This document shows, one piece after another, positions 60,001 through 64,000 of a stretch of 64,000 bases of DNA. The position numbers were made by a program. Position 1 is the stretch's first letter. Each line of letters opens with the position of its first letter. Origin of the DNA: Amphiscolops sp. MND2022 (taxonomy: Eukaryota); contig OZ076415.1 in the NCBI GenBank assembly GCA_964187785.1, forward strand, positions 11,532,001 through 11,596,000, given 5' to 3'.

Positions 60001-63000
60001 GCATTTTAAAGGATATAAATGTAGTTTATGACCTAATACATGGATTTCATCGCTACCAGTAACTTCATTTAAAGGTTTGAAAGGCGTCACCAGACTAAGC
60101 TGTTATACATATATTTGGTTCAAAACTGCACTGGTATCTGGCTAAACATCAGTAAAATCACACATGATTGATATTTGCAAGCCGTAATTACATCACAGTA
60201 TTATGTAATATTGTCTTTTCATTCAATTTCAAGCATTAGTAACATTAATCCGTTCCTTTGAATGTATGCAGCGTAAACCGCAGGGTGACGAGTATACGTC
60301 ACTGCTCAATCCGTATAGTGCCGCATAGTCTCCAGCTGACAATTCCGCACACTGCCGCGTACTCGTCTTGCAATTCCGCATACTGCCGTATACTCACCAT
60401 TAGTGGATCCGCATACTGCCGCATACTCGTTGTTGGCAAATCCGCATACTGCCGCATACTCGTTATTGGCAAATCCGCATACTGCCGCATATTAAATCAT
60501 TCCAAACAGCACGGCTGTGATGAGAATGAGTCTTTATTGCTTTCAGATGTCGTAATGAGTCAATCAATCACGCTGGCAGACGTAATTGACATGTGGACAG
60601 CCAATCAAATTGCAGCATTCTCCACGCATATTTGCGCTCAATCATTTCATTTGCTCTTTTGCCTTCTTTTGTTACATTAACGCCACGCCTTTTGTCCTGT
60701 TCTATTAACATTGCTTACGTTTATCAAGTAAAATTCATAGTCAAAGTTCAAAATCTCAGTATTTACAGATTTCGTTTTCTTTTCTTCCTTCACCTGTCGA
60801 CTGCTTCTTCCCAACACTGCAAGTGTTACTCCGTTTACTCTCTGGTTATTACCCTGTTGTTCCCAATTTATTGTTGACTTGTGTTCTTCAACAAATCGCC
60901 TCTGTTAATAAATGGATTCCCAACGAGAAACGAGTTCACCGGGAAAAGAAGATCTCGAAAAGGTTACCCCTTCCACCACCAGGATGATTTCTGGAATTGT
61001 GATTTGCCTCCTGAGCCAATGCCATGTAAGTTCAACAATTTTATTCTAGTTTAGGTTCATTTTAGTTCTGTTCCAAAGGTTTATGCTTTCTGCTAAGCTG
61101 GCCAGGCTCGCAAAAATGAAAATGATCAGAACAACTTCTAGATCAGATTCAGAATTTTTTCGAAACGTTTCCGTTTCTGACTTCTAAGCGATTTCCGTTC
61201 CTCTTTCATTTCCTGTCCCCGCGTCCGGTTCCAGTTGATTTTTGAACAGAAAAGGCTTGCGTGGTCCACTTCCTTTTTATTTTAGTAATAGACCGATTGT
61301 TTTAGCTGAACAAGACAAGGCTCAAGTTGCTTCTTCTAATTCACCGACGAAAGTTTATGCTGCACTGAAAGTCGCAACACCCCAATCCCGTGGTCTAGCG
61401 GCTGAGGTGGGAACACCCAGTGAGCCACCTTTACAAATTGATGAAGGGATAACGGTCGAGACCCACACTAATCCTTCAGCCTTGAAAATTACAGACCCAT
61501 CTTCCGACACGGTTCAGGGTCAGACCCAGGATCTTTCCAGCGAAACTGTTGTTGCTTCAACTCCTGATACTACCCCTGTCAAAAGCATGGATGCATTGGC
61601 GGGTAATTTCACTCAGAGTGTGTACCAGGACTTGATTCCACAATGTAGTTCCCAAATGGAATCCCCACGATTTGATCAACTTCTTCCACAAACTAGAAAC
61701 AATGATGACGTTCCCCAAAATCCTGCTGTGATTGGATTGGACACAGAACTGAACCCCGAAGATATTCGTCTGCAGGAGGATATCGTTCATGCCAGAGAAG
61801 AATCCACTCTTCAGAATACAACCCTCCCAAGCCTCAGCATTACACGACAGGAGATTCTCGTTTTGTCGAGTGTGCTTGATAGAATACCCCCCGCATTCCT
61901 TACTAGTGAAGAAATTGGCATTCATCATCCCATGGGATTGACAATTGTAGACGATCTTGTGCCGGCTGTAGTTCCTGCCACGTCTAGCCAGGAAGAGCTA
62001 ACAATGCAAACTGATTCTGGAACAACTCATCAAGGGGCGAGCCAGAGCGTCACTTTGGCGCGGGGGAAACGACGTCGAGCCAGGTATTCTCTGACCGGCG
62101 GAATGCTCAAGAAACATCCCGTCCTAAAATTCTCTGCCACTGGACCATTAGATAAGGGCAAGTCCCCCCATAAATGGTGGTGTAGAGTCTGCAAAGTAGA
62201 GCTGTCTCTCATGAGTAGAGGGAGTCTTGAACTGATCTCGCACTACCGCTCAGATGCTCACCTGATCAAGGAGCATCGAATCCGCATGGAGGTGCCAGGG
62301 ATGCCTCTCTTCGACAAGGACCAGACCGAACTGTTAGGGGTTGCTCTCCAAGAAGCGAAGAGGAAAGCTAAAGACACTTATCCTATTGCTCCCCAACTCG
62401 ATTCTTGTCGGCCTCTCGTGGGACAAGAGTCAATTCCAGATTTTACCGCTACCAGTAGTCCTACAGACAAAGTGTTATCTCAAATCAGTATCCTTGAGTT
62501 CGGTTTGAAGCATGGTGGGCACATTTCCAGTTTAACTGGAATGTATGACGAGCTTGTGCGCTTAACGTCCAGCGACCGGTTGTCAATGCAAAATTGGGGT
62601 CCCGAACGTCTCTTTGTAAGTCTCTTCTTTCCTTCTCTCTAGGTTTATTTTCGTTATCATTTTGATATACTAGGTATCACTTATATCATTTTACGCGATG
62701 TCCGCGCACAAATACCCACTTCAGTTCTTTTGTATACTGAAAGCATTTCATGTTACAGGGTATCCTGGTCTACATGTTTCGGGAATTGGTAAGCCACTGT
62801 GTCTCGATGATCACTACTTCTGGACATTATTCTTTGGCCATGCAACATACCAGCACCGTATCTTTCGTCATGCTTTGCTTCTGGGCTGGCAATGTTTACC
62901 ACCGAGTTTGCCTTGGTGGGGCACCTCGAGGACTGTTACTCCCAAGGAAGGTTATCACCCTGGTATCCTCTTTCCTCAGTCTTTTCGAGACTTACCCGAC

Positions 63001-64000
63001 ATGTGTGGCTCTTATTGATTTTGATGACAAACTTAGTGACTGCCTGACTGCTTCCCTGCCTGGATCGCACCACCCCACAATAGTCCACACTTTTGGCCCT
63101 AAGGAGTTTGAACGCAGTTTGGCTACCCCAACTGTACAGATAATCGAGAGGCATGACTACAGGACAATTCTGGATTTCCTGATGATGAAACTTAGGACTG
63201 CCCTCGACCGGGATTGGTTGCAACAATTACCTCTCTTGCATAAGGTAAAATCCCAATCATAAGTCACTTTGTTCTTTGATAGAAGACTTCTTCTTGCCAA
63301 TTTCGATTTTTTAATGTTGTAGTGTGTTACCCAATTGGAGTATTCACTTGTCGAAGCGTCAGATTTGATTGAGATCCTGTCCAGCAACTGGAATCATGTC
63401 CAGAATCATTTGAATCAAGTGGCTCGACTCCCTGCTTACCGCTTCCACATGAGAGAGGTTATTTTCAGTTTTCTCGATTTGTCTTTAGTCAGGACTGACC
63501 TCATCTTATTTCCTAATTTTCTTTCAGCCAAGCACTTTGGACGAATGTTTCCGCCTGGACACGGCCTACTTGGCCAGACTGTTCATCATTAGATGCGTCC
63601 TCGATCACTGTTAGTTGGTTGTTTCCTTTTGTTCGGTGTAAAAAATTCAGGTATATAATTCATCTTTTCATATCAAGACAAATAGTTACTTGGCTTGTTT
63701 CTCATAATAGCTCATAATTGTCCTTGGTCACTGTTTTCTGATCTGCATTGCGTTGTTTTATGATGCATACATATCATGACAAGTATTCGGTACATCTCAA
63801 GACGTGTATTGTCGCATCGTCACCATATAATACCATTTCAGCATAGTGGCGATCGCTCTCCACAGCTCAAACCGTATAGTGACGCACTGGCATCACTGCT
63901 TGGACCGTATAGTGACGTGTAGTCGTCATCCTTTACTATTTCCGCATAGTGTCGAGTAATCGTCACAGCTCAAGCCGCATAGTGACGTATAATCGTCATC

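What the first reader, a model, noticed from the sequence alone, without database searches (positions are those of the whole stretch)
60270..64000. Unclassified TIR element encoding a spliced zinc-finger protein with no visible DDE transposase
Seen: an 18/20 inverted match between 60284-60303 and the final 20 bases; ~33-bp-period subterminal arrays at both ends; a multi-exon gene with a C-x2-C-x16-H-x5-H finger and a helical C-terminal part in which I cannot see a DDE/D, HUH or tyrosine-recombinase motif. The termini do not match superfamily signatures I know (CACTA, hAT, piggyBac, mariner). Inference: a new or highly diverged DNA-transposon family, or the accessory-gene half of a two-component system.
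Basis: partly seen in the sequence, partly recalled or inferred. Interest (0 to 1): 0.65.

Follow-up and report, generated by a model that had tools for sequence, protein, structure and literature searches.

The report
hAT-like repeat gene without DDE
This is one copy of a very abundant, unnamed repeat family in an invertebrate-type genome: a gene for a zinc-finger protein whose second domain has a transposase-like fold without the usual catalytic residues, sitting between arrays of 33-base repeats.

Summary
The reading of them as terminal inverted repeats is not established.

- **Ends:** the 18/20 inverted match exists, but it lies in a palindromic core (GTGACG-N6-CGTCAC) of a 33-bp unit. That unit runs in the same (+) orientation at both ends, and the direct left/right alignment scores higher than the inverted one (51 vs 31).
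- **Gene:** it has phase-0 GT-AG junctions for exons 2-5, and its paralogues show the same exon boundaries. The C-x2-C-x16-H-x5-H ligands are nearly invariant.
- **Exon 3:** it folds with confidence (pLDDT 90) into an RNase H-like domain. Its best PDB match is the Hermes hAT transposase, but weakly (E 7e-3). The two aspartate positions, as placed from the secondary structure, are not conserved: S in 33 of 36 sequences, and G/D/N.
- **Family:** at least 346 clusters at 50% identity, none named, and no Pfam family for any exon.

My best reading (0.5) is a hAT-derived element that does no catalysis itself. Its protein would bind the arrays, and another enzyme would move it. A host multigene family is the main rival. 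The right tip and any target-site duplication lie beyond the window, and no eukaryotic DNA collection was open.

The parts
60278..60507 (+). Left 33-bp array of 7 units. The first unit carries the palindrome, the second is intermediate, and five are 'B-type' units (twice CCGCATACTG).
   Evidence: unit coordinates and profile hits, all on + at E<0.01.
60281..60303 (+). Candidate left tip, CAGGG followed by the palindrome GTGACGAGTATACGTCAC (60285-60302).
   Evidence: (I1, I2). That it is a terminus is inference: in the one other locus seen (P0233), B-type units come before this unit.
61019..61025 (+). Possible very short first coding segment (ATG plus 4 nt, then the donor GT at 61026). It is the only start whose phase fits exon 2. 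Inferred, not shown.
   Evidence: Read. An exon from the ATG at 60912 to 61025 ends in phase 0 and fits no candidate acceptor.
61306..62615 (+). Exon 2: a variable, probably disordered N-terminal part, a K/R-rich stretch, the zinc finger and a helical region.
   Evidence: 100 paralogue clusters listed; the V[L/S][A/V]E pattern in paralogues fits a conserved AG at 61304-05; inference; fold pLDDT 87.5 for 62049-62615.
62181..62261 (+). C-x2-C-x16-H-x5-H zinc finger (Cys 62181 and 62190; His 62241 and 62259).
   Evidence: C 38/40, C 41/42, H 44/48, H 45/48; beta-beta-alpha-alpha; zf-BED in 3 of 141 members, best E 1.6e-4.
62759..63244 (+). Exon 3: RNase H-like domain (helix, three strands, helix, strand, helix, strand, helices) without conserved catalytic aspartates.
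   Evidence: pLDDT 90.4, pTM 0.72; top hit Hermes 4d1q_G, E 6.9e-3; S25 33/36; position 87 is G27/D15/N8/H3 of 56.
63323..63457 (+). Exon 4 (45 codons, phase 0 at both ends).
   Evidence: 61-74% identical in the three paralogue ORFs that read through intron 3 (P0119, P0152, P0117).
63528..63614 (+). Exon 5 with the stop codon. It rests on splice signals and an open frame only.
   Evidence: No paralogue evidence was found among the fetched proteins.
63770..64000 (+). Right 33-bp array of about 7 'C-type' units (CCGYATAGTGACG-N6-CGTCAY), in the same orientation as the left array. It is cut by the window end.
   Evidence: (D1, D3, D4).
57947..58210 (+). A third, degenerate array of the same unit, + orientation. 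It aligns unit by unit with the right array and stops after the unit matching the window's last one. No copy of the gene lies beside it.
   Evidence: a 24-nt match upstream of both arrays; no second copy of the gene in the window.

Best explanation
The region is one apparently intact copy of a high-copy, intron-bearing repeat family derived from, or distantly related to, hAT-type DNA transposons.

The unit runs from about 60278/60281 to just past 64000. It consists of a left array of 33-bp repeats, a gene, and a right array of related 33-bp repeats in the same orientation. A palindromic GTGACG-N6-CGTCAC site lies at or near both tips.

**Shown**
- The protein has a K/R-rich stretch and a conserved CCHH finger.
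- It has an RNase H-like domain whose closest solved structure is the Hermes transposase.
- That domain lacks conserved acidic residues where the first two catalytic aspartates should sit.
- After the last core strand only about 125 residues follow, and no hAT dimerisation domain is detected.

**Inferred**
- The protein cannot cut DNA itself.
- It binds the palindromic and 10-mer sites of the arrays, much as BED domains of Hermes bind subterminal repeats.
- Copies are moved by a catalytically competent relative encoded elsewhere, with this protein acting as an end-binding adaptor or a regulator.
For: **Copy number and decay.** 100 clusters at 90% identity were listed, 51-99% identical to the finger region, drawn from 1705 candidates. 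At 50% identity, 346 representatives reach E<=1e-3, 185 reach 1e-10 and 71 reach 1e-30. None of the 100 proteins listed has a name or a Pfam domain, and the library carries no names. Many are short fragments.

**Constraint.** P0004 is 87% identical overall but 94% identical in the finger part. The finger ligands are nearly invariant.

**Shared gene structure.** Paralogue ORFs break at the same exon ends. P0020 reads through intron 2, and P0119, P0152 and P0117 read through intron 3. The contiguous relatives P0216 and P0199 join the two domains where the splice is predicted.

**Fold.** Exon 3 has pLDDT 90.4. Of the 42 Foldseek rows listed, 35 are transposase, integrase, Argonaute-PIWI or RT-RNase H chains (the classes are my own sorting). 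Hermes ranks 1 and 14.

**hAT leads.** zf-BED matches 3 of 141 members. The atlas neighbours of P0020 300-718 carry DUF4371, FAM200-ZBED5 RNase-like, ZBED1 RNase-like and DUF659, with scores 0.87-0.93.

**No DDE.**

**Ends.** The arrays occur far more often than chance. Left and right arrays differ in unit type. A second right-type array at 57947-58210 stops after the unit equivalent to the window's last one, which argues that the right array ends close to 64000.

**Precedent.** Hermes ends are asymmetric, carry a quasi-palindromic pair of BED sites next to the tip, and have repeats of a single orientation along each end (PMC10368747, passages read).
Against: - No terminus is proven. The right tip and any target-site duplication lie outside the window, and no other DNA copy could be fetched.
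- The subterminal arrays are direct, and the direct end-to-end alignment (51) beats the inverted one (31).
- In the only other left-array locus seen (P0233), two B-type units come before the supposed terminal unit.
- All links to hAT are weak. Foldseek gives no hit at E<=1e-3, and TMq is only 0.33-0.40. The finger model's match to the ZBED1 BED domain has E 1.2. Exon 3 alone gets no atlas hit. Profile searches against PDB sequences find nothing.
- No catalytic partner was seen. None of the 51 ORFs of 100 aa or more that were scanned shows a class II transposase, and none of the listed relatives is long enough to hold one.
- The catalytic positions were placed from the secondary structure, not from a residue-level superposition.
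Confidence: 0.5

Rival explanations
1. A host multigene family of transposase-derived zinc-finger proteins (ZBED- or SLEEPER-like domestication followed by expansion). It would spread by tandem or segmental duplication. The 33-bp arrays would be regulatory or boundary sites, or a minisatellite that travels with the gene.
For: - The whole family lacks the catalytic residues, including the most distant members P0216, P0199, P0198, P0205 and P0206. The loss is therefore old, yet the domains stay conserved.
- Introns and open frames are kept.
- The arrays are direct, as expected if each is an upstream or downstream gene-associated array.
- Domesticated hAT genes are well known (abstracts of PMC3606216 and PMC11351766, seen in the listing).
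Against: - The number and spread of copies are very large (346 clusters at 50% identity), and many are truncated pieces. That pattern is more typical of a selfish repeat.
- A degenerate solo array without the gene lies 2 kb away.
- The locus sits among retrotransposons.
Confidence: 0.25
2. An autonomous transposon of a new kind. The protein would itself cut and join DNA, using residues other than the canonical DDE, or using a third partner domain in exons 4-5.
For: - The family is abundant and conserved, with no visible catalytic partner.
- Several acidic residues are well conserved: E77 37/56, E130 30/48, D133 39/48 and D139 35/44.
Against: - The beta-1 position is serine in 33 of 36 sequences, and the post-beta-4 position is mostly glycine.
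- To my knowledge, no RNase H-like transposase works without the beta-1 aspartate (recalled).
Confidence: 0.1
3. The gene is a passenger, or one module, of a larger composite unit. That unit might run from the array at 57947 to beyond 64000 and include the divergently oriented ORF 58426-59481. Alternatively, a Helitron-type element with hairpin-rich ends captured the gene.
For: - Three arrays in the same orientation bracket two divergently oriented ORFs.
- The palindromes could form hairpins.
Against: - No Rep/helicase, tyrosine recombinase or other mobility gene was found among the 51 ORFs scanned.
- The region next to the first array shows no other similarity to the gene's flanks, apart from 24 nt.
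Confidence: 0.1

Closest known systems
hAT superfamily transposons (Hermes, Ac, Buster)
   Same: - An N-terminal CCHH finger is followed by an RNase H-like core. Hermes is the top structural match.
- Long, asymmetric subterminal repeat regions, with a quasi-palindromic site next to the tip (PMC10368747, passages).
- The left tip begins CAGGG.
   Different: - No conserved DDE.
- No large all-alpha insertion domain, and no Pfam hAT dimerisation domain.
- No significant similarity at sequence level.
- The 33-bp arrays are regular tandem units, not scattered short motifs.
- The target-site duplication is unknown.
Domesticated hAT genes (ZBED family, SLEEPER/DAYSLEEPER)
   Same: Transposase-derived finger proteins that have lost catalysis and kept DNA binding. 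The atlas neighbours of a paralogue carry ZBED-type RNase-like Pfam families.
   Different: Those genes are single-copy or modest host families without flanking repeat arrays, and most keep the dimerisation domain (recalled). Here there are hundreds of diverged and decayed copies bounded by arrays.
Non-catalytic element-encoded DNA-binding proteins (Myb-like protein of PIF/Harbinger, TnpA of En/Spm, KP repressor of the P element)
   Same: The proposed role is the same: a protein encoded by the element that binds subterminal repeats and assists or represses a separate catalytic enzyme. This is inference, and the roles of those proteins are recalled.
   Different: Those proteins sit beside, or derive directly from, a catalytic gene in the same element family. 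No catalytic gene has been seen for this family.

Membership tests
hAT superfamily | N-terminal BED-type zinc finger (CCHH/CCHC) | tested here: inconclusive
   The CCHH ligands are nearly invariant and the fold is beta-beta-alpha-alpha. But Pfam zf-BED matches only 3 of 141 members, best E 1.6e-4, and none for the window's own exon. Foldseek to the ZBED1 BED domain gives E 1.2.
hAT superfamily | RNase H-like catalytic core | tested here: met
   AF2 pLDDT 90.4 with the canonical strand and helix order. The top Foldseek hit is Hermes 4d1q_G (E 6.9e-3, prob 0.97), and 35 of the 42 listed rows are RNase H-like enzymes. The fold class is firm. The specific tie to hAT is weak.
hAT superfamily | Conserved DDE catalytic triad | tested here: not met
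   Beta-1 position: S in 33 of 36. After beta-4: G27, D15, N8, H3 of 56. The positions were assigned from secondary structure.
hAT superfamily | C-terminal hAT dimerisation domain (Pfam PF05699), and an all-alpha insertion domain | tested here: not met
   No Pfam hit at E<=1 for exons 3, 4 or 5. By my count from the exon coordinates, only about 125 residues follow the last core strand.
hAT superfamily | 8-bp target-site duplication | not testable with these tools
   The right end lies beyond base 64000, and no other DNA copy was available.
hAT superfamily | Short terminal inverted repeats with a YARNG tip (recalled) | tested here: inconclusive
   The left side reads CAGGG at 60281. The 18/20 inverted match stops at the window edge, and it is the palindromic core of a directly repeated unit.
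Class II TIR transposon (general) | Many dispersed copies with shared boundaries | tested here: inconclusive
   Many copies are seen at protein level. Boundaries were seen in only one other locus (P0233), where the array extends further left.

The most novel reading that the evidence does not exclude
A selfish, high-copy element family whose only protein is an anciently non-catalytic, hAT-like DNA-binding protein. Two versions are open. In one, it is a 'parasite of a transposon' that brings its own end-binding adaptor and borrows only the nuclease. In the other, it is a new transposon superfamily that uses an RNase H-like fold with a non-DDE active site.
Probability: 0.12. Interest if true: 0.8.

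Novelty: new variant of a known kind. Interest (0 to 1): 0.45.

Why it matters
If the reading holds, a large unnamed share of this genome's repeats belongs to a family that standard annotation misses: no Pfam family, no named relatives. Its protein would be a rare example of a transposase-like fold kept for DNA binding, not for cutting, in hundreds of copies.

That would be useful for repeat annotation. It would also give a natural test of how end-binding and catalysis can be separated in hAT-type transposition.

If instead it is a host gene family, it is a large lineage-specific expansion of transposase-derived DNA-binding proteins.

Tried and rejected
**Searches that found nothing useful**
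- Pfam on each exon ORF: nothing at E<=1.
- Sequence and profile searches against PDB with P0020, A2 and A3: only chance-level rows.
- Protein atlas with exon 3 alone: no usable hit.
- Foldseek of the exon-2 model (62049-62615): no match better than E 0.96.
- Longer relatives of exon 3: only P0020 and P0103, so no fused catalytic form was seen.
- Literature searches (listings only): no description of such a family. They were keyword searches and cannot show that none is in print. Supplementary files were not consulted.

**Alignments not used**
- Alignments joining both domains (A1, and local MAFFT trials) misaligned finger sequences onto the RNase H-like domain. They were not used for folding.

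**Attempts to reach other copies**
- I tried to map the left boundary through ORFs that cross it. That gave a single hit, P0233.
- Other DNA copies: the search for related loci on A3 failed for lack of a conserved stretch. On A4 it found 3 pattern matches, none of them a relative.
- The array motif gave one match, in a bacterial MAG contig (L001). It is only a 10-bp triple repeat, so a chance match.
- Genome contigs holds only bacteria and archaea. Eukaryotic copies therefore stayed unchecked.

**Readings considered and set aside**
- Helitron, Crypton and LTR readings. No Rep/helicase or tyrosine recombinase was found in any scanned ORF, and no reverse transcriptase lies inside 57900-64000.

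**Not done**
Exons were searched and folded one at a time.
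Full report
**Context**

The window is eukaryotic and of invertebrate type. It holds a Gypsy-like pol on the minus strand (12864-17268) and BEL/Pao genes (29420-37979). It also holds an LRR ORF, a SUEL-lectin domain and another reverse-transcriptase fragment. Nothing suggests human sequence. No N was met in the stretches read (57400-64000).

**Checking the observation**

The 18/20 inverted match between 60284-60303 and 63981-64000 is there. It scores 31, against shuffles with a maximum of 24 (200 shuffles).

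Two points change what it means.

- The matched motif is a palindrome, GTGACG-N6-CGTCAC. With up to 3 mismatches it occurs six times in the window (0.02 expected): once at the left edge, three times in the right array and twice near 58023-58105. The left arm pairs about as well with an internal right-hand site (63911-63932, 86% of 22 nt).
- The 33-bp units that carry it run in the same orientation at both ends. All 11 hits of CCGYATASTGNCG inside the element are on the + strand. A profile of the units finds 15 hits at E<0.01, all on +. The direct alignment of 60277-60329 with 63941-63993 scores 51.

So the arrays are real and far above chance, but they are direct. The inverted match is the symmetric core of a directly repeated unit.

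The two arrays differ in unit type.

- The left array starts with one palindromic unit and one intermediate unit. Five units follow that hold CCGCATACTG twice.
- The right array has about seven units of the form CCGYATAGTGACG-N6-CGTCAY.

**A third array**

A degenerate array of the same unit, again on +, lies at 57947-58210.

- It aligns unit by unit with the right array.
- It shares a 24-nt stretch upstream with the right array (score 36, against a shuffle maximum of 26).
- It ends right after the unit that corresponds to the window's last unit.
- No second copy of the gene is in the window.

I take it as a solo right-end remnant. I also take it as a hint that the right array of the main copy ends within a few bases of 64000.

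The single other locus I could see through a translated array (P0233) has the same order of units as the left array, but two more B-type units come before the 'terminal' unit. The left boundary at 60278/60281 is therefore not proven.

**The gene**

Exons were handled one at a time.

The junctions read are all GT-AG and phase 0:

| Exon | Coordinates |
|---|---|
| 2 | ends at 62615 |
| 3 | 62759-63244 |
| 4 | 63323-63457 |
| 5 | 63528-63614, with the stop |

Paralogue ORFs stop being similar at the same points.

- P0020 reads through intron 2.
- P0119, P0152 and P0117 read through intron 3 into a conserved exon 4.
- Two distant relatives, P0216 and P0199, are contiguous across the exon 2/3 join.

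Exon 2 most likely starts at 61306. The paralogues keep V-[L/S]-[A/V]-E there, which fits a conserved AG (my inference). That phase does not fit an exon from the ATG at 60912 to 61025. An ATG at 61019 would fit. The 5' end stays open.

**The family**

- The finger region has 100 listed clusters at 90% identity, 51-99% identical to the window. All come from source 'ena', without names or Pfam domains.
- A full HMMER pass with the paralogue ORF P0020 gives 346 clusters at 50% identity with E<=1e-3 (185 at 1e-10, 71 at 1e-30). Many are fragments.
- P0003 matches the window's exon-2 ORF at 459 of 466 residues, including the intron-encoded flanks. It is an allele or a very recent copy.
- P0004 is 87% identical overall and 94% identical in the finger part. 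The folded domains are therefore under more constraint than the N-terminal part.

**What the protein is**

No exon matches Pfam at E<=1. Sequence and profile searches of PDB give nothing.

The finger ligands are nearly invariant: C 38/40, C 41/42, H 44/48, H 45/48. The exon-2 model has pLDDT 87.5 and shows two short strands, two helices, then further helices. Foldseek finds nothing significant for it. The ZBED1 BED domain is at rank 3 with E 1.2. Pfam zf-BED matches 3 of 141 family members, best E 1.6e-4.

Exon 3 folds with pLDDT 90.4 and pTM 0.72. Its order is helix, three strands, helix, strand, helix, strand, helices, which is the RNase H-like order.

Foldseek gives no hit at E<=1e-3. Even so, 35 of the 42 listed rows are transposase, integrase, Argonaute-PIWI or RT-RNase H chains. 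Hermes transposase is at rank 1 (E 6.9e-3, TMq 0.33) and rank 14 (TMq 0.40).

The protein atlas, queried with P0020 300-718, lists neighbours that carry DUF4371, FAM200-ZBED5 RNase-like, ZBED1 RNase-like and DUF659, at scores 0.87-0.93. That is a lead only, and exon 3 alone gave no hit.

At the positions where the first two catalytic aspartates should sit, the family has:

- S in 33 of 36 sequences;
- G27, D15, N8 and H3 of 56.

The most distant members lack them too.

By my count from the exon coordinates, only about 125 residues follow the last core strand. No hAT dimerisation domain is found.

**How it most likely works**

The shown facts are these:

- an abundant, partly decayed family;
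- a conserved finger;
- an RNase H-like domain without the DD positions;
- asymmetric arrays with palindromic sites.

From them I infer a hAT-derived element that has kept end-binding and lost catalysis. The finger would bind the 33-bp units. A period of 33 bp is about three helical turns, so sites would sit on one face of the DNA. A competent relative would do the cutting.

Hermes gives a precedent. BED domains bind subterminal repeats. Those repeats are arranged asymmetrically at the two ends, mostly in one orientation per end, with a quasi-palindromic pair beside the tip (PMC10368747, passages read).

The CAGGG at 60281 fits the hAT tip consensus. I recall that consensus and did not test it.

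**Rivals**

- A host multigene family of domesticated transposase-derived proteins.
- A truly autonomous element with a non-DDE active site.
- A larger composite unit that also holds the divergently oriented ORF 58426-59481.

**What stayed open**

- The right tip and the target-site duplication.
- Any other DNA copy.
- Transcripts.

Four keyword searches of the literature showed no description of such a family. I saw only their listings, plus passages of one paper.

**Verdict**

This is a real, repeat-bounded member of a large unnamed family. It is best read as a hAT-like element without its own catalytic residues. The terminal inverted repeats are unproven. Interest is moderate.

Noticed in passing
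window 24346-28309: A 312-bp unit repeated 12.6 times at 94% identity. It lies inside a 1498-aa open frame on the minus strand (24178-28674) with strong AT skew and no Pfam hit. It looks like a coding tandem-repeat protein.
   Followed up: partly
window 58426-59481 (-): A 351-aa ATG-started ORF lies between the third array and the left array, oriented away from the zinc-finger gene. It has no Pfam hit.
   Followed up: partly
window 56710-57621 (-) and 54182-54395 (-): A 303-aa ORF has only a weak Myb/SANT-like hint (E 0.058). A second partial copy about 2.3 kb away is about 77% identical at protein level.
   Followed up: no
window 12864-17268 (-): A Gypsy-type pol (RT, RNase H, integrase zinc-binding domain and core) is split over several frames, so the copy is probably decayed.
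   Followed up: no
window 29420-37979 (+): BEL/Pao-type genes (DUF1759, Peptidase_A17, integrase H2C2, DUF5641). The peptidase and integrase parts appear twice, which suggests a partial internal duplication or two nested copies.
   Followed up: no
window 48301-48723 (-) and 48743-49010: An exon-like ORF with a SUEL-type lectin domain (E 3.4e-12) lies next to a 31-bp tandem repeat of 8.9 copies.
   Followed up: no
window 1691-3619 (+): A 642-aa open frame with leucine-rich repeats (LRR_4, E 1.4e-10), probably a host gene.
   Followed up: no
L001 4908-4927 (-): The only genome contigs match to the array motif is a triple 10-bp repeat in a bacterial MAG contig. It has no 33-bp array, so I take it as chance.
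   Followed up: yes
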